DNA of 64,000 nt from Narcine bancroftii (taxonomy: Eukaryota). The stretch lies in contig NC_091471.1 of the NCBI RefSeq assembly GCF_036971445.1, positions 295,926,001 to 295,990,000 on the forward strand. The letters are read 5' to 3'. This document shows positions 11,499-52,709 of the stretch, piece after piece; position 1 is the first letter of the stretch, and each line of letters starts with the position of its first letter. The notes beneath the pieces were generated by a model, which saw only the letters and a list, made by a program, of their open reading frames with translations, was not told the DNA's origin and did not search any database. Both the position numbers and the translations under genes were made by a program.

Positions 11499-12262
11499 TC
11501 AGATAGTGATGGAGCCAGCCAGAATGCTCTCCACAGTACACATATAGAAGTTTTTGAGAATCTTCAGGGAAGTACCAAATCTCCTCATGTACCTAACAAA
11601 GAATAGCCACTGGAGAGCCTTCTTCGTGATTACATCAACATGGAGGCTCCAGGACAGATCCTCAGAGATGTTAACACCAAGGAATTTGAAGTTCTTGACC
11701 CTCTCCACTACTGAGCCCGCGATGAATACTGGGTTGTGTTTCTCTGACTCCCTCCTGAGTCCACAATCATCTTAGTTTTGCTAACGTTGAGTGTAAGGTT
11801 GTTCTTGTGACATCAAAGAGCTGCTCTATCTCCCTCCTGCACACTTCCTCATTGCCGTTTGTGATTCTGCCGGCATCGGCAAACTTGTAGATAGCATTGG
11901 AATTGTGCCTGCCCACGCAGTCATTAGTGTATAATGAGTAAAGCAGTGGGCTAAGCATGCATCCATGGGGTGTGCCTGTGTTGATATCATTGAGGAGGAG
12001 ACATTGCTTCCAATTCGTACTGACTGTGATCTTCTGATGAGAAAGTCAAGGATCCAGTTGCAGAGTGGGCTACAGAGGCTCAAAGTTTGTAGCTTCTTGA
12101 CCGTCACTGGGGAATAATGATATTTAAGGTTGAGCTGTAGTCGATGAAGAGCAGTATGAGTTGCTGTTTTTTGAGGTGTTCTAGAGCTAAGTGGAGAGCC
12201 AGCAAAATTGCCTCTGCTGTGGAGAGATTATAATGATAGGTGAAATGCACTGGGTCCAGATC
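11499..12262 (-). mobile_element. Rex-Babar-like LINE RT fragment
   Basis: LCNWILDFL..RSQSVRIG, LSPLLYSLYTNDC...IYKFAD and ERVKNFKFLGVNISEDLSWSLH motifs across frameshifts. Confidence 0.85.
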
Positions 12263-12894
12263 TTTGCTTATATTCTGGACTTCCTAACAGAAAGATCACA
12301 GTCTGTCTCGGTCTGTAGGAGAACTTCAAGCATCATCATGCTGAGCACTGGCACACCTCAGGGCTGTGTGCTCAGCCCACTCCTGTTCACGCTACTGACC
12401 CATTGGAGGATCCAGCTCCAACAGAGGCAGATGACACACAGTAATTGGCTTTATCAACAACAATGATGTGTCGCCCCTTTCATAATAGATAACCTTTCCT
12501 TTAGAGAATGGGAGAGAAAAGGGATCAAAAGAATAGAAAATTGTTTTTTGGGAAATAAATTATTATACTTTGAACAAATGAAGGATAAATATAATATAAC
12601 TCACGATACAATGTTTGCATACCACCAACTGAAAACCTACTTGAAGGACAAATTGGGAAACAGTCTGAGGTTACCAGAAGGAAGCAATTTTGAATATGTG
12701 ATTACAGACACAATGATAATTTAAAAATTTGTAACAAACATGTACATCAAACTACAAGAAAAGGAGGAGTCACGTGATGGAGTAGTGGCCGGACAGTGAA
12801 CTCCAGCCCTCTCCAGAAAAGTCGGGAAAAACAAAGGAAAACACAAAGGCACAGAAATAAAAGTTACAGAAAAGTGAGTAAAGGTGGAAAGAAG

Positions 12895-14100
12895 ATGGCG
12901 ACAAAAAAAGAAAAATCGAAAGCAACGGTAAGAAGAGAGGAAGAGAAGACAACGGAGGAAAAAGGTGAAGGCCTTACCTGTTCGAAGAGGCCCGCTGCGG
13001 AGAGAGAAACCCGCTCCCTCAGGTCGGTAAATAATGGACTACAAAAATGGCTCGCTGAGCCGAGTAAAAGTGCGCAGCCGCGCATGCGCAATGCGCATGC
13101 AAAAAAACACACCGACGGGAGGGGGGACCAGCTGGGGAGTCGATCTCCACAGCCAGCAACGACAGCTGCAGAATACCTGCAGCAAGAAGAGACCACAGAA
13201 GACAATAGAAACAAGAAAGAAGAGAAGGAAAGGGCAACAAAGAAACAACAGATGGCCAACCCAGAGGAAGAAGAAGAGGAAGAGTACAGTGAAATAGAAG
13301 AAGAAAAGAAAGGCAAGATAAAGGAGGTACTTTCTCTTATTAAAGGATACATGGAGTCATTTAAAGAATGGCAAACACAGGAATTTAATGATTTAAGAAA
13401 AAGAATAAACAACACAGAAGAGAAAATGAATAAAATAGATATGACCTTAACAGAAATGGGAAAGAAAATGGACAAGATGGAAGAGCGGGCAGTAGCAGCA
13501 GAAATGGAGGTAGAAGACTTAAAAAAGAAATTGGAGGAATCTAATAAAAAAACTAAAGAGACACAAGAACTACTAGCTCAAAAAATAGATACAATGGAAA
13601 ATTATAACAGAAGAAATAACATAAAGATAGTGGGCCTTAAGGAAGATGAAGAAGGCAAGAATATGAGGGAGTTTATAAAAGAGTGGATCCCTAAGACCCT
13701 AGGATGTCCAGAACTACAGCAAGGAATGGAAATAGAAAGGGCACATAGAGTATTGGCCTCTAAACCACAACCACAACAAAAACCAAGATCTATTGTAGTA
13801 AAATTCCTAAGATATACTACAAGAGAAAAGGTACTGGAGAAGACAATGGAAAAAGTAAGAGAGGGCAACAAACCACTGGAGTATAAAGGGCAAAAAATCT
13901 TCATTTATCCAGATATAAGTTTTGAACTCCTAAAGAAGAGAAAAGAGTTCAATAGAGCAAAGGCGATTTTATGGAAGAAAGGGTATAAATTTATACTAAA
14001 GCATCCAGCGGTATTGAAAATATTTATTCCAGGACAACAAAACAGACTATTCTCGGATCCAGAAGAAGCACGAAAATTTGCAGAACAATTACAAAAATAG
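12895..14100 (+). CDS. L1 ORF1p (coiled coil, RRM, CTD; Transposase_22-like), uninterrupted
   Basis: Heptad coiled coil, then MENYNRRNNIKIVGLKE, IERAHR, PRSIVVKFLRY and IFIYPDIS...KKRKEF motifs. Start may be ATG 12895 (401 aa) or ATG 13252 (282 aa). Confidence 0.9.
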   Translation: MATKKEKSKATVRREEEKTTEEKGEGLTCSKRPAAERETRSLRSVNNGLQKWLAEPSKSAQPRMRNAHAKKHTDGRGDQLGSRSPQPATTAAEYLQQEETTEDNRNKKEEKERATKKQQMANPEEEEEEEYSEIEEEKKGKIKEVLSLIKGYMESFKEWQTQEFNDLRKRINNTEEKMNKIDMTLTEMGKKMDKMEERAVAAEMEVEDLKKKLEESNKKTKETQELLAQKIDTMENYNRRNNIKIVGLKEDEEGKNMREFIKEWIPKTLGCPELQQGMEIERAHRVLASKPQPQQKPRSIVVKFLRYTTREKVLEKTMEKVREGNKPLEYKGQKIFIYPDISFELLKKRKEFNRAKAILWKKGYKFILKHPAVLKIFIPGQQNRLFSDPEEARKFAEQLQK

Positions 14101-14238
14101 ACTGAGGGATGAAGACGGGTAATGAGAGTAAAAATGAGCACGATTGATATGTATGTGGGTAAAGACAAAAATAGACTGAGGGATGAAGACGGGTAATGAG
14201 AGTAAAAATGATCACGATTGATATGTATGCGGGTAAAG
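14091..14238 (+). repeat. 74-bp tandem duplication spanning the ORF1 stop and inter-ORF spacer
   Basis: acaaaaatagactgagggatgaagacgggtaatgagagtaaaaatga...gggtaaag at 14091-14164 and 14165-14238. Confidence 0.9.
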
Positions 14239-16964
14239 AGGTATAAGAGTGAATAGAGACAATGTGCATACGTGAATGTATCTGTACTTAGAGGAAAATA
14301 TAGATAGTATAGACAAGAATTAATAAGGGAAGGTAATGGAATAGAGAGAATAAGGAGGGAATTAAAAGAGTGACCTTTGTGACATATGAAAAGTGAAATC
14401 TTTTCTGGGGGGGGCTGGGTGGGGGGAAATAGCGGTCACTGCAAAATCAGTTGACGCTTGCGAGTGGATTCGCAAATCCAAATGGAGAGGGGAGATGTGG
14501 TTGTCCGACAAGGGATAAAGGACAACTCAGGAGGGGAAGGGGAGATTGGGGATAAAGAAGATAGAAATAGGAGAATAAGGAAAATGTTGGATGTTGTAGG
14601 AATGTTGTCTTATAAAGAGTTGAAAATAAGAAAACAGAAATGGAAAAGGAGGAAAGGCAATGATGGAAAAATGGAAAGAGAAGATAAACAAAATATAAAA
14701 TGGCTACGCTGAACTATATGACTTTAAATATTAATGGAATACATAACCAAATTAAAAGGAAGAAACTACTAAATTTAAATGAATAAATGTATTCCATTAG
14801 AAAAAATAACATATAGGTTAAGAAATAATATTGAAATATTCGAACAAGTATGGGAGCCTTACATTAAATACAATAGCGAAAACCTACTGGGGACAAACAT
14901 TACCTAAGTTGATAGAAGGAGAAGGAAAGAAAAGAATGGACTCAGTAGAATTTCTGGTGTATTTTTGTTGAATGACAACATTGTCTGACTGGCTTAATGC
15001 AACCTAGATTGTATACCTAAAATGGATGAGAGGGGGGTGGCTTGGGAGGAGGGAGGGGGGGGGGGAGAAAAAGTCAGTGTATATGTGTGAAAAAGAAATA
15101 GTGTATATCATGGCTAATGTGATTTATGGTGTGAAAAATAAAAAATTTAAAAAAAAACTGCAAGAAAAGGAGAATGAGGAAACAAACGGTAAACCTAAAC
15201 AAAAATGGGAACAAGATCTAAACATAAAGATAAAGAATGAAACATGGGAAAAGCTATGCTCTGGAACTATGAGAAATACAATAAAGACAAGGTTACGCAT
15301 GATACAATATAACTGGATACACAGGCTATGCATCACACCTCAAAAGTTAAATAAATGGGACCCAACAGTATCAGACAGGTGTTTTCACTGTAAAAAGGAA
15401 ATGGGAACAACAATTCATGCAATTTGGACATGTGAGAAAGTGAAAAAATTTTGGGAAGATCTAAACCAGATATTAAATAAAATCACAAAAAGCAATATAC
15501 CAAAAAACCCAGAGATCTTCCTCCTAAGTAATATAAGAAATAAAGAATTTGGACTCGATTTGGATGGAGTACAAAAAAGATTTGTTACGATAGCCCTAGC
15601 TGTAGCAAAAAAATGTATTATGTCAACCTGGAAATTAGAAGACAACTTGAGAATACAACAATGGTATATAGAAATGAATAAATGTATTCCATTAGAAAAA
15701 ATAACATATAATTTAAGAAATAACCACAATATTCGAACAAATGTGGGAGCCATACATGAAATACAATAGAGAAATCCTACCATGGACTTCCACCACCTAA
15801 AATGACAGAAGGAGAAGATAACGAAAAGAACTGATTCAGTAAAATTTCTTGTTTATTTTTATTAAGTGACAACATTGTTTAACGGGTTTAATGTATCTTA
15901 TAGATTGAACTTCAAATAAATGGGAAAGGGGGTGAGGGAGGGAGGGAAGGGAGGGGGGAAAAAGGGGGAGAAAAATGACACTATATATTCAAGAAAAAAA
16001 ATGTCTGTATGTATCTTGGTCAATATGGTTTATAGTGTGAAAAATAAAAGAAAAATAAAAAAAAACAATGATGTGTCGCAATACAGAGAATTGGAAAGTC
16101 TTATCATATGTACGAGAGTAACAACCTGAGTTTCAATGTGGACAAGAGATAGGTGATTATAGTGGACTTGAGGAGGACCAGGAATGACCACCCTCCACCT
16201 TACATCAACATCTTTATAGTGGAGAGAGCGGAGAACATTTATATTCCTTGGAGTCCACTTAACTAGTAACCTATTGTGAACACCCAACATGTCCTTACTT
16301 GTTAGGATGGCACAACAGTGACTGCACTTCCTGAGAAGACTGAAGCAGACAAGGCTACTGCTTACCATCATGCCAGCCTTCTGCAGGAACTTTATTGAGA
16401 GTATCCTGGTGGCTGCATCACGGTGTGGTCATGGATTGGGGAGAAGTGGATCGGAGGTCAATCTACAGGACCATAAGAGTGGCAGAGAGGACTACTATAG
16501 TCTCCCTTCCATTCCCCCTTCCCCCCCCCCCCCCCACCCCATCGACATGATCTACCAGGATTGTTGTATGAAGAGGACATGCAAAATTATTGAGGACCCC
16601 TTCCACCCTGCACATAGCATCTTTTAACTGCTCCCTTCAGGGAAAGTGTATGGGAGTATCGGAGCCAGCAGCACCAGGCTGAGAAACAGCTTCATCCAGC
16701 GGGCAATGAGCATGCTGAATGACCAAAGGAATTGCTCACACTAACCTTCCGAAACTCTCACATTCACAAAACAATATTTATTTATTTATTTGTATAGATG
16801 AAATACTTGTCATGCATATGTATTGTTTGTCTGGATGTGTGTTATGTCTAGATGTGTGTCTGCAGGTTTTGCACCGAAGACCCGAGAATGCTTTTTCGTC
16901 GGATTGCACTTATACAATCAGATGATAATAAACTTGACTTAAAATCAGTTCTGATCCTCCAAAA

Positions 16965-22057: not shown

Positions 22058-24231
22058 TGTGATAGTACAGATCTATCACCAATGTACATAGTGTATATAG
22101 TTACTGTATCTAGACTGTGCTTACAGCGATTGGCTGAGAGCTAAGCCACACCTATTGTTTGGGCCTTAAAGGGTTGTGTCCCTAGCCAGGTCGGATCATT
22201 CCGGACTGGTCGGCCACCTGTGAAGAGCTCCGGTCTTTTGCTAATAAAATTGTAGAGCTCGTCGAAAGAACCAAAGACTTGTTGATCCAAACCAAGGCTT
22301 CCAAACTACGCCGACAAGGCACGTCCTCTTATCAAGACCACCTCTTTTCCCTTCTCGACCGAAGCCACAGCGGCTTTCGATCGAATCAAATCTGACATCG
22401 CTGCTGCGACGCTGCACGCGATCGATGAGTCTGTCCCGTTTCAAGTCGAGAGCGATGCATCCGACTTCGCCCTGGCAGCCACCTTGAACCAGGCCGGTCG
22501 GCCTGTAGCCTTCTTCTCCAGAACCCTCCAGGGTCCGGAGAGTAGACACTCCTCGATCGAGAAGGAGGCCCAGGCCATAGTTGAAGCGGTACGTCGTTGG
22601 AGACATTACCTCGCTGGGAGGCGCTTTACACTGTTGACTGATCAACGCGCGGTCTCCTTCATGTTCAGCAACACCCAGCGTGGTAAGATAAAAAACGACA
22701 AAATCGCCAGATGGAGAATCGAACTCTCCACCTTTAACTATGACATCCTGTACCGGCCTGGTAAGCTCAACGACCCGCCTGACGCGCTCTCCAGGGGGAC
22801 GTGCGCCAGCATACAGATGGACAGACTACGGAAACTCCATGAGGCGCTCTGTCATCCAGGGGTCACTAGGTTTGCTCACTTTGTCAAGGCGCGCAACTTA
22901 CCCTACACAGTCGAGGAGATCCGCTCCATGACCCGAGCCTGTTCGGTGTGCGCCGAATGCAAGCCCCACTTCTTCCGTCCGGATAACTCCCACGTTATCA
23001 AAGCCACCCGCCCCTTCGAGCGTCTTAGCGTAGACTTTAAGGGACCCCTACCGTTGACCAACCGTATTACCTACATCCTTACGGCCATCGACGAATACTC
23101 CCGCTTCCCATTCGCTGTGGCCTGCCCAGACACCACTGCCACCTCAGTGATACAGGCCCTTCACAGTATTTTCACCATCTTCGGGTACCCCAATTCCATC
23201 CACAGTGATAGGGGGTCCTCATTAATGAGTGCAGAGCTGCAACAGTACCTTCTGGAGTGTGGTATTGCTTCAAGCAGGACCACGAGCTATAACCCACGCG
23301 GTAATGGCCAGGTCGAGAGGGAGAATGCCACCATATGGAGAGCGGTTACACTGGCTCTCCGGTCTAAAGGTCTCCCCACCTCTCACTGGCAGGAGGTTCT
23401 CACTAGTGCCTTACACTCCATCCGCTCCCTCCTATGTACTGCAACAAATGCCACCCCCCACGAAAGGATGTTCCTTTTCCCGAGGAAATCCGAATCGGGA
23501 ACCACTGTACCGGCATGGCTCACCGTCCCTGGCCCCGTCTTTTTGCGACGCCACGTCCGGCACTCAAAGAACGACCCCTTGGTCGACCGAGTGACTCTAC
23601 TCCACGCGAACCCACATTACGCATACGTGGAGTTCCCAGACGGGCGGGAGGACACTGTTTCGGTGCGGGACCTAGCTCAGGACGCGGTAGACCCAGCAAA
23701 CCCCCCAACTCCTTATGCTCCAGGCCCCGTGCCGCAACAGAAGGACCAACAGCACCCCAATGACCCGGGCCACCCTGCCGACAAAACGACTGGGGAATTG
23801 AGCGACGGAGCAGTCGCACCCGATGAGCCCGCTGGCGACACCACTCCAGCGACCCCAATCCCGGCACCACGGCGGTCACGCCGGATGGTCAGACCCCCTG
23901 ACCGCTACAGTCCTTGAACTACCCCTTCCTTTTCATTCTCTCCCTCGTTTTTGTTTTTTTTCCCAGGGAAAATTCTCCAAGAAGGGGTGAATGTGATAGT
24001 ACAGATCTATCACCAATGTACATAGTGTATATAGTTACTGTATCTAGACTGTGCTTACAGCGATTGGCTGAGAGCTAAGCCACACCTATTGTTTGGGCCT
24101 TAAAGGGTTGTGTCCCTAGCCAGGTCGGATCATTCCGGACTGGTCGGCCACCTGTGAAGAGCTCCGGTCTTTTGCTAATAAAAGCCTTGGTTTGGATCAA
24201 CAAGTCTTTGGTTCTTTCGACGAGCTCTACA
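22058..24231 (+). mobile_element. Gypsy/Ty3 LTR retrotransposon 1 (gag-PR-RT deleted; RNase H-integrase intact)
   Basis: TG...CA ends, 5-bp TSD CCCTC (22053-22057 and 24232-24236), PPT aagaaggggtgaa before the 240-bp 3' LTR (23992-24231). The 5' LTR matches the 3' LTR over 22058-22249, then U5 is inverted. Confidence 0.95.
22301..23917 (+). pseudogene. Gypsy pol remnant: open RNase H, HHCC zinc finger and DDE integrase frame without its N-terminus
   Basis: VESDASDFALAATLNQ..PVAFFSRTL, EKEAQAIVEAVRRWRHYL, H...HPG...C..C, SVDFKGP, IHSDRG and GNGQVERENATIW motifs; no stop until 23917. Confidence 0.9.
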
Positions 24232-25219: not shown

Positions 25220-28210
25220 TGTGATAATACAGATTCTATCACCAATGTGTACATGTACAGATGTTAGTGTAGGATGACTGATTGGCTGAGAGTGTAGCCA
25301 CACCTACTGGCAGGTCTCAAAGGATTGCTCCTAGCCAGATCAGGTCATTCTGGACTGGTCGACCTACTTGTGATATGCTCCAGTCTTTTAGTTAATAAAA
25401 GCCTTGGTTTGGATCAACAAGTCTTTGGTTCTTTCGACGCGCATTACAATTGCTCTCTGTCTGTAACCACTCTACCCTGGGAACCTCCTGCCAGGAGCAT
25501 CTAGAGCTACCCACCCCCGTGCCCCAGGGCTTCACCTGTAGTCTCTCTACCCTCCGAGTCGGTCCGCCAGCACTTTTCGCAAACCTCACCCCTGGCTGGA
25601 AGCCTGTGGCCACCAAAAGCCGGCAATATAGTTCTGAACACAGGAAATTTATCACAAATGAGATGCTCAGACTGCTGGATGAGGGTATTATTGAACCTAG
25701 CTCGAGTCCATGGAGGACCCAGGTAGTAGTTGTTACAGACGGAGAGAAGCCATGGATGGTGGTTGACTACAGACAGACAATCAACCGCTTCACACTCCTG
25801 GATGCGTACCCCCTTCCACGGATCATGGAGGTGGTGAATCAGATCGCCCAATACCGTGTATTTTCCACCATTGACTTACGTTCGGCCTATCATCAGCTCC
25901 CGATCCATCAAGAAGATCGACCTTTCACGGCCTTCGAGGCAAATGGGCGGCTGTATCAATTCCTCAGGGTACCCTTTGGGGTCACAAATGATGTCGCAGT
26001 CTTCCAACGGGAAATGGATCGGATGGTAGATCAGAACGGGCTGACTGCTACTTTCCTGTATCTGGACAATGTCACCATCTGCGGCCATGACACGGAGGAT
26101 CATGATGCCAACCTTGAGAAATTTTTTCAGACTACAATTCGGCTGCACTTGACCTACAATTTCGACAAGTGTGTCTTGCAATTCTGGGTTGCGTGGTGGA
26201 GAACGGGGTGGTCATGCCGGACCCTGACCGCATGCGTCCCCTCATGGACTTTCCCCCCCAACACCCAGAAGGCACTCAAATGCTGCCTGGGTTTTTTCTC
26301 TTACTATGCCCAATGGGTTCCACACTATGCCGACAAGGCATGGCCACTCATCAAGACCACCTCCTTCCCCCTGTCAACTGAAGCCTGAGCGGCCTTCAAC
26401 CGCATCAAATCGGACATCGCTGCTGCAATGCTGCATGCCATCGATGAGTCCATTCCGTTCCAAGTCGAAAGCGATGCGTCTGATTTTGCACTGGCTGCCA
26501 CTTTGAACCAGGCCGGCCTGCCGGTAGCCTTCTTCTCCAGAACCCTCCAGGGTCCTGAGAGCCGACACTCCTCTGTCGAGAAGGAGACCCAGGCCATAGT
26601 CGAGGCAGTACATCGTTGGAGACACTACCTCACTGGCAGGTGCTTTATGCTGCTGACTGACCAACGCACGGCCTCCTTCATGTTTAGCAATACCCAGCGA
26701 GGTAAGATCAAGAATGACAAAATCGCCAGGTGGAGAATCAAGCTCTCCACCTTTAATTATGACATACTGATTCGGCCAGGTAAACTCAACAACCCGCCAG
26801 ATGCGCTATCCAGGGGGACTTGTGCCAACATGCAACTGGACAGGCTACAGAAACTCCACGAGGAGCTCTGTCATCCAGGGGTCACTAGGTTCGCGCACTT
26901 TGTCAAATCTCGCAACCTGCCCTGCACGGTCGAGGAGATTCACTCCATGACCCGGGCCTGCCCAGTGTGCGCTGAGTGCAAGCCCCACTTCTTACGTCCG
27001 AAGAACATCCACATCATCAAAGCTACCCGCCCCTTTGCGCGTCTCAGCGTAGACTTCAAGGGGCCCCTACCGTCGACCAACCATAACACCTACATCCTTA
27101 CGGCCATTGACAAGTACTCCCGTTTCCCGTTTGCTGTGCCCTGCTCGGACATGACTGCCTCCTCAGTTATAGAGGCCCTCCACAGCATCTTCGCCATCTT
27201 CGGGTACCCCAGTTACATCCACAGTGACAGGGGGTTCTCGTTTATGAGCGCGGAGCTGTGGCAGTACCTTCTGGAGCATGGTATTGCTTCAAGCAGGACC
27301 ACCAGCTATAATCCACTTGGTAATGGGCAAGTCGAAAGAGAGAATGCCACCGTCTGGAAAGCGGTTACGCTTGCCCTCCGGTCCAAAGGTCACCCCACCT
27401 CTCGCTGCCAGGATGTGCTCATTAGTGCCCTACACTCCATGCACTCCCTCCTATGCACCGCGACCAATGCCACCCCCCATGAAAGGATATTCTCTTTCCC
27501 GAGGAAATATGAGTTGGGTATGACCATACCGGCATGGCTCACGGTTTCCGGTCCAGTGCTTTTACGACGCCACGTCCGGTACTCTAAGAACGACCCCTTG
27601 GTTGGCCGAGTGAATCTGCTCCATGCGAACCCGCATTATGCATACATTGAGTACCCAGATGGATGGGAGGACACAGTCTCGGTAAGGGACCTAGCCCAAG
27701 CCGGATCAGACACAGCAGTGCCTTTAACCCAACCTCCCCCTATTCCTTCTCCCCCAGGTCATGTGCTTGAACAGATGGACCAGCTCAGGCCAGACTGTCG
27801 ACAATGGCGTTGGGGAATTGAGCAAAGCAGAGGCCGCACCCTACAGGCCTGCCGGCGACTCGACTCCGGCGATCCCAATCCCGGCGCCACGGTGGTCACG
27901 CCGGATGGTCAGACCCCCTGACCGGTACAGCCCCTAACCTCCATTCACCCTGGGGTCGGTTCTCAAAGAAGGGGTGAATGTGATAGTACAGATTCTATCA
28001 CCAATGTGTATATGTACAGATGTTAGTGTAGGATGACTGTGATTGGCTGAGAGTGTAGCCACACCTACTGGCAGGTCTTAAAAGGATTGCTCCTAGCCAG
28101 ACCAGGTTATTCTGGACTGGTCAACCTATTTGTGATATGCTCCAGTCTTTTAGTTAATAAAAGCCTTGGTTTGGATCAACACGTCTTTGGTTCTTTCGAC
28201 GCACATTACA
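25220..28210 (+). mobile_element. Gypsy/Ty3 LTR retrotransposon 2 (gag-PR deleted, pol disrupted)
   Basis: LTRs 25220-25448 and 27979-28210 (several mismatches), TSD GTGAG (25215-25219 and 28211-28215), PPT aagaaggggtgaa. Related to element 1. Confidence 0.95.
25450..27936 (+). pseudogene. Gypsy pol (RT-RNase H-integrase) with frameshifts and a stop
   Basis: GIIEPSSSPW, VVDYRQTINRFTLLDAYPLP, STIDLRSAYHQ, FTAFEANGRLYQFLRVPFGVTN and YLDN motifs; frameshifts near 26175 and 26255; TGA at 26386; RNase H and integrase in ORF 26428-27921. Confidence 0.92.
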
Positions 28211-50530: not shown

Positions 50531-51375
50531 TAGCCCATGAGGTTAATGGAGCTTTCTAGCCTCACACTGAGCATGTATGATGAGAAATGACATCTCTGGG
50601 CAAAGGAGGTCTGTGTGAATGTGTGAGGCCAAGCAGAATAAGTGTGAGGTGATGCATTTTGGAAGGTCAAACCTGAAGGCTGAACACAGGGTTAATGATC
50701 AGATGCTTAACAGTGTGGACAAACAGAGAGAACTTGGGGTCCAAATCCATATATGGCACAAGGTTGCTGTGCAGGTTGATCAGATAGTTAAGAAGGCCTA
50801 TGGAATGCTGGGCTTCACAAGTCAGGGAGTTGACTTCAGGAGTTGAGAGGTCATGTTATAACTCTACAAATGTCTGGTGAGACATTTGAATACTGAGTTC
50901 AGTTCTGGTCACTTCATTATGTGGAAGCGATGGAGAGATTGACCTGGATTGGAAAATAAGTCTTATGAGGCAAGGTGAGCAGAGCGAAGGGAAGAAGGAT
51001 GAGAGGTGACTAAATGGAGGACTACAAGATTTTGAGAAGTATAGATGAGGTAGACAGCCAGTACCTTTTTCCTGGGGCGGGACTATCAAACACTAGAGGA
51101 TATTTGTACAAAGTAAAGGGAGAAACATTTAGGGGAGTCATCAGGGGTGTTTTTTTAAAAGAGTTGTGGGTTCCTGCAACCTCTGAAATGGGGATGGTTG
51201 TGGAGGCTGAAACATGAAGGGTATTTCAGAGACCCTTGATTTCAGATACACATGGATGAAAGAAAAATCGAGGATTATGAGGCAGGGAAGGTTTAGTAGT
51301 TTTATTTAGGTAGGACTATAACGGTTGGCACAACATCGAGGGCCGAAGGGCCTGTATTGTGCTATATAGTATTTT
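50531..51375 (+). repeat. Local segmental duplicate B (unique flank plus CR1 fragment)
   Basis: Partner of 46271-47055; CR1 ORF remnant NKCEVMHFGRSNLK...RELGVQIH...QVDQIVKKAYGMLGF. Confidence 0.85.
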
Positions 51376-51981
51376 ATGACTGCCCCAGGATCAGTCTCGG
51401 CTCTACGCGATTTCTTAGCTTGAAGAGCACAGCTGGCCTGCGAGGGGTGAGGCAAGATGTGGTCAAACGCCACAGCCAGCGGAGGGGATGAAGGAACACG
51501 ATAAAACCAGCACTGCTCAGTGCCCAGGACATGACGAAAAGGGACCAGCCGGAGAATTCTCTCAAAAGTGCTCGTACAGGCCCAGTGGGCCGAATGAGTT
51601 CCCTTACCCCCCCCCCCCCCCCCAATGCTGTGCTTTTTCACTTCTTAAATCCAAGCCCGGCACGTCAGTTTGACAACAGTTTTAGGATGACATTAAAAGT
51701 CTTGCATTTCTATAGCACCCTGTGCTCGGACATCCCCAAACACTCAGCATCCGGAGCTGCAGTGGGGAAACCAGCGGCGGATGGTGACCGCAACGTGAAA
51801 GTGAGGGCGGTGGAGAAGGCGGCAGATCCACGCTCCTCAGACATCCCAGGACAGTCATTGCACACAATCAACGGACCAGAGGCTCTCTCTCTCCCTCCCG
51901 CGGCGCCACCACCCCATGGCCCCCTCCTCTCCCGCGGCGCCCCCTCGGCAGCCTCGCCTCCCCGCCCGGGGATGGGTTTAC

Positions 51982-52292
51982 CTGTCTGAGTCTCCGCCGC
52001 CCCCGCGGACCTGTGCTGCCAGGTGACCGAGAAGTAGGGCGAGCAGCAGGCAGCACAGGTGCAGCGACACTGAAAGAGAAGCGAGTCCCCGGGCGACGCA
52101 GCGCAGCAGCCGGGCGGCCGCAGGCGGGACGGGGGAGAGCGGAGGTCCAGGCGTCTGAAGGAGCAGGCTGGCGGACTGGAGGGCCATGAAGGCAGCGGCG
52201 GCGGCCAGCGAGAGCAGCGCGGCCAAGCAGCGGTTCGGGGACAGGTCCGCGGTGCCCGCTTGAGCTGGTCCGCTCCTCCCAGCCGGTGGCAT
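51982..52292 (-). CDS. TMEM221: TMEM221 exon 1
   Basis: ATG 52292; MPPAGRSG...RCLAALLSLAAAAAFMALQSASLLLQ...LASLSVSLHLCCLLLALLLGHLAAQV...DSD-R |GTAAAC. Two hydrophobic helices and a GHL.A motif; within a CpG island; spliced total 289 aa. Confidence 0.88.
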
Positions 52293-52480
52293 GTTTGCCC
52301 ACGACGGCCGCCCTCCCACACCTTATCCCCCCCTCTCACTTCCGGCGGTTCTTCCCACCCCTGGAAACCGACCCAAACCGGGGGACGTGTCCGGTCCCTG
52401 TCGGCGCTCCCAGTTCGGGGTCACTCAGACAGGAGAATAGATACAGGAGGCCATTCAACCCTTCGAGCCCGCCGCACTTG
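52293..52480 (-). promoter_or_regulatory. TMEM221: TMEM221 CpG-island promoter
   Basis: GC/CpG-rich; ETS motif (ACTTCCGG) at ~52338. Confidence 0.55.
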
Positions 52481-52709
52481 TCAATATGAACGCGGTGGAT
52501 CATGTGACCTCAAAGACCTCTTCCTGCTCTCTCCCCCTCTCTCATGATCCCGTAATCCCTGTAGCCACATCCACTCCATTCTGAATATGTTACGAACCAG
52601 CTTCAATAACCTGTGGGAGAAGGTCCAACAAGTTCACAACTCTGATCATTGTCGAAAATGACTTCTCCTGAGACGGTGACCTCTTGTTCTGGACTTCCCC
52701 AACATTGGG

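What the first reader, a model, noticed from the sequence alone, without database searches (positions are those of the whole stretch)
12767..15154. ORF1-only ('half') L1 with intact ORF1 and a near-total ORF2 deletion
Seen: TSD-flanked 2.4-kb element with 5' end, uninterrupted ORF1, 3' UTR and polyA. ORF2 starts (MATLNYMTLNINGIHNQIKRKKLLNL, APE endonuclease N-terminus, 14700) and jumps at ~14777 to the last ~35 codons, giving a 28-aa stub. Known: mammalian HAL1 elements are ORF1-only L1 derivatives that borrow ORF2 in trans. Inference: this may be an independently evolved HAL1-like non-autonomous family. It would supply its own RNA chaperone while parasitising the L1 family it sits in, since the two 3' ends are homologous.
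Basis: partly seen in the sequence, partly recalled or inferred. Interest (0 to 1): 0.75.

Follow-up and report, generated by a model that had tools for sequence, protein, structure and literature searches.

The report
Young half-L1 retrotransposon in a ray
A recently inserted 2.4-kb LINE-1 copy, likely from an electric ray genome, keeps its intact RNA-binding gene but has lost about 95% of its reverse-transcriptase gene, and likely belongs to a non-mammalian 'half-L1' family that would borrow the missing enzyme, although the number of copies sharing its deletion is still unmeasured.

Summary
The anatomy is confirmed. An 18-bp target-site duplication encloses a 5' UTR, an open 401-aa L1 ORF1, a 28-aa ORF2 stub fused at 14777 to the last 42 ORF2 codons (out of frame), a 3' UTR and a short A tail, nested in an older dead L1. 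Public contigs pin both breakpoints to 14777, show that full-length relatives exist, and suggest only about 5 private substitutions (0.2%), so the copy is young. The decisive test, counting copies with this junction, could not be run: no genome is held and the contig tables list no piece bridging 14777. Indirect support for a family: two other contigs from two samples fuse ORF2 start to ORF2 end near the same points, and 5' and 3' parts are similarly abundant. Against or neutral: 11 of 14 shown ORF1 variants change the amino acid, and an intact ORF1 is expected in so young a copy. The host L1 (77% alike at the 3' end) is likely not the parent. Verdict: likely (0.7) a HAL1-like non-autonomous family, a new member of a known kind; one-off deletion 0.25.

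The parts
12749..12766 (+). Left target-site duplication of the half-L1 (18 bp, 1 mismatch to the right copy)
12767..12894 (+). 5' UTR, 128 bp; with the first 357 bp of ORF1 (CpG o/e 0.89 against 0.33 for the window) a likely internal promoter region (inferred)
   Evidence: 5' end supported by 5 contigs that join 12760-12766 to other places (table 5c)
12895..14100 (+). ORF1, 401 aa, uninterrupted; L1 ORF1p (coiled coil, RRM, CTD by homology)
   Evidence: 94% identical to P0027
14091..14239 (+). 74-bp tandem duplication (2 copies, 97%) covering the ORF1 stop and start of the spacer
14101..14699 (+). Inter-ORF spacer, 599 bp
14700..14786 (+). ORF2 stub: 26 native codons of the APE endonuclease start, 2 junction-made codons and a stop
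14777..14777 (+). Deletion junction; one A is shared by both sides; about 3.6 kb of ORF2 missing (estimated from a 1252-aa relative)
   Evidence: table 7
14779..14907 (+). ORF2 C-terminal remnant, 42 codons, out of frame with the stub
14908..15154 (+). 3' UTR with G-rich tract, AATAAA at 15137-15142 and a short A tail
15155..15172 (+). Right target-site duplication
12475..12766 (+). Host L1, left piece: 5'-truncated ORF2 C-terminal region with an in-frame stop
   Evidence: P0025 residues 630-726
15173..16063 (+). Host L1, right piece: rest of ORF2 in the same frame across the insertion site, a 2-bp frameshift near its end, 3' UTR, A tail
   Evidence: P0025 residues 723-918
12459..12474 (+). 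Left target-site duplication of the host L1 (16 bp exact; partner at 16064-16079)

Best explanation
This is a recently retrotransposed L1 copy that keeps ORF1 and both ends but lacks about 95% of ORF2, and it is likely one copy of a non-autonomous 'half-L1' family that would make its own ORF1p and borrow endonuclease and reverse transcriptase from a full-length sister L1. Shown: structure, target-site duplication, breakpoints, existence of full-length relatives, very high abundance of the wider family. Inferred: an ancestral full-length L1 lost the ORF2 interior in one step (template jump or end-joining, 1-nt overlap); the shortened RNA is transcribed from the 5' internal promoter, coats itself with ORF1p made in cis, is captured by ORF2p made in trans and is inserted by target-primed reverse transcription; being short, more of its copies keep the promoter and can copy again.
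For: (1) The 18-bp duplication encloses the whole 2.4-kb unit. (2) The deletion spares the promoter region, ORF1, ORF2 start codon and 3' UTR and removes nearly all of ORF2, the known HAL1 design (PMC5786205, PMC5753468, PMC3627910 passages). (3) Two other contigs fuse ORF2 start to ORF2 end at nearby but different points: in X6 (sample S3) one contig leaves the stub at 14753 for 61 letters whose 30 shown letters match the remnant from 14784 at 26 of 30 (counted by eye), and it is among the 6 loose ends shown for that run; in X1 (sample S1) a joint 14756 to 14799. So such fusions are not confined to this locus. (4) Summed contig depth of the 3' UTR is only 1.6 times that of ORF1 in X1 (0.34 in X7, 0.22 in X9, 2.7 in X6), flatter than 5'-truncation of a 6-kb element usually gives (recalled expectation; weak, the tool says depth is no copy number). 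(5) ORF1 proteins 86-94% identical lie on three different chromosome-size contigs in Narcine bancroftii RefSeq, while the longer-protein search with the host's ORF2 end returned 3 proteins, none named from that species (weak). (6) Prior reasoning: a window drawn at random is far more likely to hold a member of a many-copy family than a one-off near-total ORF2 deletion.
Against: No contig bridging 14777 is among the 32 pieces shown (37,679 hidden; a bridging unitig would be short and so not among the longest). Full-length forms are plentiful at the junction (39, 15, 10 and 3 contigs run on into ORF2), so much ORF1 depth may be theirs. The two other fusions are single contigs, have different breakpoints, and the X1 joint has depth 8 and only 23 letters on one side, a class the tool warns is often false. 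11 of 14 shown ORF1 variants are non-synonymous, about the neutral share, though only 40 of 160 variant rows were shown and 8 of the 11 lie in codons 10-178 (N-terminal region and coiled coil). With about 5 private substitutions an open ORF1 needs no selection. One substitution already separates the two target-site copies, so time for a post-insertion deletion existed. All searches for the junction in other collections were blank.
Confidence: 0.7

Rival explanations
1. A one-off: a full-length young L1 lost its ORF2 interior during this one insertion (template jump of the reverse transcriptase) or afterwards (end-joining deletion, or a nested insertion followed by recombination between 3' ends). 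It has left no progeny.
For: Full-length relatives are abundant on both sides of 14777. The copy is young enough for ORF1 to be open by default. Many single-copy deletion joints exist in this family (15 shown, table 5). One X1 contig shows another element's 5' end inserted 6 letters past 14777 in a full-length copy, so the spot is an insertion target. Template jumps and non-homologous recombination are both proposed routes to internally deleted LINEs (PMC3414825 passages).
Against: Both breakpoints fall within about 130 bp of the ORF2 ends; two more start-to-end fusions lie within 25 bp of them in two samples; flat 5'-to-3' depth.
Confidence: 0.25
2. Assembly artefact that collapsed a full-length L1.
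For: High-copy repeat; no bridging contig shown.
Against: Only 1 nt is shared at the junction, no repeat that would mislead an assembler; no N in the window; both flanks, both target-site pairs and the host reading frame are coherent.
Confidence: 0.02
3. Retrocopy of a spliced L1 RNA in which the ORF2 interior was removed as an intron.
For: The missing piece ends in AG in one of its two possible registers (loose ends).
Against: In that register it begins AC, in the other it reads CT...GA; neither is GT-AG, GC-AG or AT-AC on the sense strand, nor CT...AC for the antisense strand.
Confidence: 0.01
4. A domesticated ORF1 gene in the manner of L1TD1.
For: ORF1 is intact; near-identical ORF1s are annotated as proteins in RefSeq.
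Against: The copy is about 0.2% from its family, nested in three layers of repeats, and one of very many; RefSeq names of the relatives are those of unrelated host genes, suggesting chimeric gene models.
Confidence: 0.02

Closest known systems
HAL1 (half-L1) of mammals
   Same: L1-derived, encodes ORF1p only, keeps both ends, thought to need cis ORF1p and trans ORF2p; arose several times independently (passages in PMC5753468, PMC3627910, PMC5786205, PMC13756887; the primary paper Bao and Jurka 2010 was not held).
   Different: Comes from a fish-type L1 of a cartilaginous fish, not a mammalian L1; very young (about 0.2% private change) whereas guinea pig HAL1 coding capacity is described as 29-44 Myr old; keeps recognisable ORF2 start and end; family status and ORF1 selection not shown.
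HeT-A (Jockey clade) and Ag-Sponge (CR1 clade)
   Same: ORF1-present bipartite non-autonomous LINEs (PMC5786205 passage).
   Different: Other clades; HeT-A is telomere-specific; this one is L1 clade and inserts at dispersed A-rich sites.
SIDEs and ORF-less bipartite LINEs (R2, RTE, Ingi, Vingi)
   Same: Made by internal deletion, keep 5' and 3' ends (PMC3414825, PMC5786205 passages).
   Different: They encode no protein; this one keeps a 401-aa ORF1.
Fish-type full-length L1 (unnamed P0024-P0026; ORF1 relatives in Narcine bancroftii and Hemitrygon akajei)
   Same: ORF1 family, APE start and C-terminal motif.
   Different: Endonuclease, reverse transcriptase and cysteine-rich domains are missing here.

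Membership tests
HAL1-like (ORF1-present non-autonomous L1) | Derived from the L1 clade | tested here: met
   ORF1 profile hits LINE-1 ORF1p chains at E 1e-17; stub and remnant match APE-RT ORF2 relatives. No tree was built.
HAL1-like (ORF1-present non-autonomous L1) | Intact ORF1 as the only long ORF | tested here: met
HAL1-like (ORF1-present non-autonomous L1) | Endonuclease and reverse transcriptase absent | tested here: met
   tblastn of P0025 and P0026 finds only residues 1-25 and 898-930 inside the element
HAL1-like (ORF1-present non-autonomous L1) | Insertion hallmarks: 5' end, A tail, target-site duplication | tested here: met
HAL1-like (ORF1-present non-autonomous L1) | Many dispersed copies share the deleted structure | tested here: inconclusive
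   No genome; contig tables do not list bridging pieces; two nearby fusions in single contigs; blanks
HAL1-like (ORF1-present non-autonomous L1) | ORF1 kept under purifying selection among deleted copies | tested here: inconclusive
   11 of 14 shown variants non-synonymous, from a biased subset that mixes full-length and deleted copies
HAL1-like (ORF1-present non-autonomous L1) | Mobilised by ORF2p in trans | not testable with these tools
   needs a retrotransposition assay
HAL1 proper (mammalian families) | Descent from a mammalian L1 | tested here: not met
   Nearest ORF1s are from rays (93-95% Narcine bancroftii, 44% Hemitrygon akajei), then a bony fish; none of the 23 hits is named from a mammal
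Spliced L1 retrocopy | Canonical splice dinucleotides at the ends of the missing piece | tested here: not met
   ends read from loose ends

The most novel reading that the evidence does not exclude
Electric rays carry a young, still-amplifying clade of ORF1-only L1 elements, with more than one ORF2 start-to-end junction in sister subfamilies, that rivals or outnumbers its full-length parent: a live, non-mammalian half-L1 in which one can test directly why a parasite of L1 keeps ORF1 in cis.
Probability: 0.35. Interest if true: 0.65.

Novelty: new member of a known kind. Interest (0 to 1): 0.45.

Why it matters
ORF1-only LINEs are described from mammalian L1, Drosophila Jockey and mosquito CR1. 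The papers seen describe HAL1 as mammalian; four searches showed no report from a cartilaginous fish, but Repbase and Dfam could not be consulted and may already hold it. An independent, very young case would show that the design recurs across vertebrates, and, because parent and derivative are still nearly identical, would allow a clean test of whether cis-made ORF1p lets a defective RNA overcome L1's preference for its own transcript. If it is a one-off deletion it is an ordinary broken L1.

Tried and rejected
Genome-wide junction count: no genome held. Exact 33-nt junction pattern in metagenome contigs: 0 matches. A 49-aa antisense frame across the junction, as a probe for gene models that include it: 0 hits among longer proteins and among 1.84 billion representatives. 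Exact look-up of 9 peptides from the element (stub, antisense frames, remnant, ORF1): 0 of 9 in the collection. These blanks carry little weight because such short or spurious frames are rarely called. Related loci: 4 distant (25-29%) metagenome contigs with no ORF2 match, none in viral or prokaryote contigs. Earlier findings of the scan: 4 look-ups, all empty. Expression: no RNA holder listed; X6 is only guessed to be RNA, so nothing is claimed. Runs labelled organisms B, C and D are not counted as other species: other runs of the same samples or study hold next to none of the words and X7's variant shares follow X1's. Only 4 of the 14 holder runs were laid. Microhomology-driven template jump: exact overlap is 1 nt; an 8-of-10 match exists only one base out of register in A-rich DNA (0.003 for one register, chosen after the fact), so it is not used as evidence. 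Splicing rejected on the ends. Pfam alone was weak for ORF1 (Transposase_22, E 0.033). The bacterial promoter scan is irrelevant to this organism. The human tumour preprint (10.1101/2024.08.27.596794, passages) gave no usable rate for large internal deletions without inversion.

Full report
Observation. Two 18-bp copies with one mismatch (12749-12766, 15155-15172) enclose 2388 bp; 0 of 296 random pairs of 90-bp flanks gave a run that long (best 14). Inside are a 128-bp 5' UTR, an ORF of 401 aa from ATG 12895 to stop 14100, a 599-bp spacer whose start carries a 74-bp tandem duplication, a 28-aa ORF at 14700-14786, a 42-codon frame at 14779-14907, a G-rich 3' UTR, AATAAA and 6-9 A. A profile of ORF1 with six relatives matches solved LINE-1 ORF1p at E 1e-17; Pfam alone was weak. 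The stub matches residues 1-25 of a 1252-aa APE-RT ORF2, the remnant matches the last 33 residues of another, and nothing in between is found inside the element. About 1,190 codons, some 3.6 kb or 95% of ORF2, are therefore missing (estimate from the relative's length).

Setting. The element sits in the ORF2 C-terminal region of an older, 5'-truncated L1 (12475-16063) that has its own 16-bp duplication, reads in one frame across the insertion point, and has a stop and a 2-bp frameshift. The closest ORF1 proteins are RefSeq models of the electric ray Narcine bancroftii (P0027 94%, P0001 93%, P0003 86%, P0002 73%; four different contig lengths of 180-376 Mb), then a stingray at 37-44%. The window is thus likely from that species or a close relative (inference).

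What public runs show. No genome is held, so I laid four of 14 holder runs on 12600-15320 at 88% likeness. All are contigs. The family is very abundant (25,276, 7,548, 4,571 and 234 contigs laid). Loose ends pin the junction: 39, 15, 10 and 3 contigs leave the stub just after 14777 into sequence that continues the endonuclease frame, and 34, 24 and 1 contigs (X1, X6, X9; not among the rows shown for X7) enter the remnant at 14777 from upstream ORF2. So full-length relatives exist, the deletion is clean, and one A is shared by both sides. The ends of the missing piece are not splice sites on either strand. All 40 variant rows shown reach a share of 0.59 or more in some run, so I infer that rows are ranked by share; on that reading five sites in 2390 bp are private to this copy (0.2%), and the insertion is young. 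Five contigs join the family's 5' end (12760-12766) to other L1 positions, so insertion into other L1 copies is commonplace and nesting says nothing about partnership.

The open question. The tables do not list contigs that simply bridge 14777: only 32 pieces are shown, the longest, and 37,679 are hidden. Junction copy number is therefore unmeasured. Four other attempts were blank but had little power. Indirect evidence for a family: in X6 one contig leaves the stub at 14753 and continues in sequence that matches the remnant from 14784 at 26 of the 30 letters shown, i.e. a second start-to-end fusion in a slightly diverged subfamily, and it is one of six loose ends kept for that run as best supported (its depth is not printed); in X1 a joint links 14756 to 14799 (depth 8, 23 letters on the short side, possibly false). 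These come from two samples. Either a shared old junction was trimmed further in some copies or the deletion recurred; both imply more than one locus. Summed depth of 3' UTR over ORF1 is 1.6, 2.7, 0.34 and 0.22 in the four runs, flat for a 6-kb L1 with ordinary 5' truncation (recalled expectation), but the tool states that this depth is no copy number and the G-rich UTR assembles poorly. Against: full-length forms are plentiful; 11 of the 14 ORF1 variants shown change the residue, near the neutral share, although this subset is biased, mixes both forms and is concentrated in codons 10-178; and an open ORF1 is expected by default at 0.2% divergence, so it is not evidence of selection.

Mechanism. 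[quoted passage not shown] Structure and hallmarks are shown; transcription, ORF1p use and trans-mobilisation are inferred from L1 biology. The donor is more likely the near-identical full-length sister seen in the loose ends than the host family, whose 3' end is 77% alike. The main rival (0.25) is a single deletion at or after this insertion. Artefact, splicing and domestication are each at 0.02 or less.

Comparison with what is known. I saw passages, not whole texts, of PMC5753468 and PMC13756887 (HAL1 encodes only ORF1p, arose several times in mammals), PMC3627910 (guinea pig HAL1 kept ORF1 coding for about 29-44 Myr, implying cis ORF1p and trans ORF2p), PMC5786205 (HeT-A, HAL1 and Ag-Sponge as ORF1-present bipartite LINEs) and PMC3414825 (template jump or recombination as origin of internally deleted elements). 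Bao and Jurka 2010 was not held. Passages of 10.1101/050880 held no mention of HAL1 or sharks; its supplements are closed and might list ORF1-only L1 counts. The search listings showed no title or abstract start on an ORF1-only L1 family in cartilaginous fish; repeat libraries were not available. The element works like HAL1 in design; it is not a mammalian HAL1 by descent; membership of the wider kind lacks two tests, shared junction across loci and selection on ORF1.

Verdict. Real feature, correctly described; likely a new, young member of a known kind outside mammals; interest 0.45, rising to about 0.65 if a genome search shows a large active family, falling to about 0.1 if the junction is unique.

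Noticed in passing
window 14091-14239: A 74-bp tandem duplication covers the ORF1 stop. A 1-bp difference at 14093 separates ORF1 endings: this copy and P0027 stop early, P0001 runs 7 residues further; the longer ending has about 1.5% of depth in X1. A possible subfamily marker.
   Followed up: partly
run X6, places 14753 and 14784-14965: A second ORF2 start-to-end fusion (would leave an 18-aa stub) and a 5-fold depth peak over the remnant and early 3' UTR in this run only; may be an abundant sister half-L1.
   Followed up: partly
table 5c, run X1, joint 14777 to 12760: Another element's 5' end is inserted six letters past the stub breakpoint in a full-length copy; the A-rich spot beside the breakpoint is an insertion target.
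   Followed up: no
window about 11780-12459 and 16080-16500: The host L1 interrupts an older decayed reverse-transcriptase-bearing LINE relic, giving three nested layers; its family was not established (no Pfam hit).
   Followed up: partly
window 22241-23917 and 25399-27921: Two neighbouring Ty3/Gypsy-type pol remnants with RNase H and integrase matches, both interrupted by stops.
   Followed up: partly
P0027, P0002, P0003, P0005: RefSeq names these L1 ORF1 proteins after unrelated host genes (TEFM, FAM122B, GrpE-like, ADAT1), likely gene models that absorbed an L1.
   Followed up: no
window about 51300-52550: GC-rich stretch with many overlapping open frames, likely a CpG-island promoter or first exon.
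   Followed up: no
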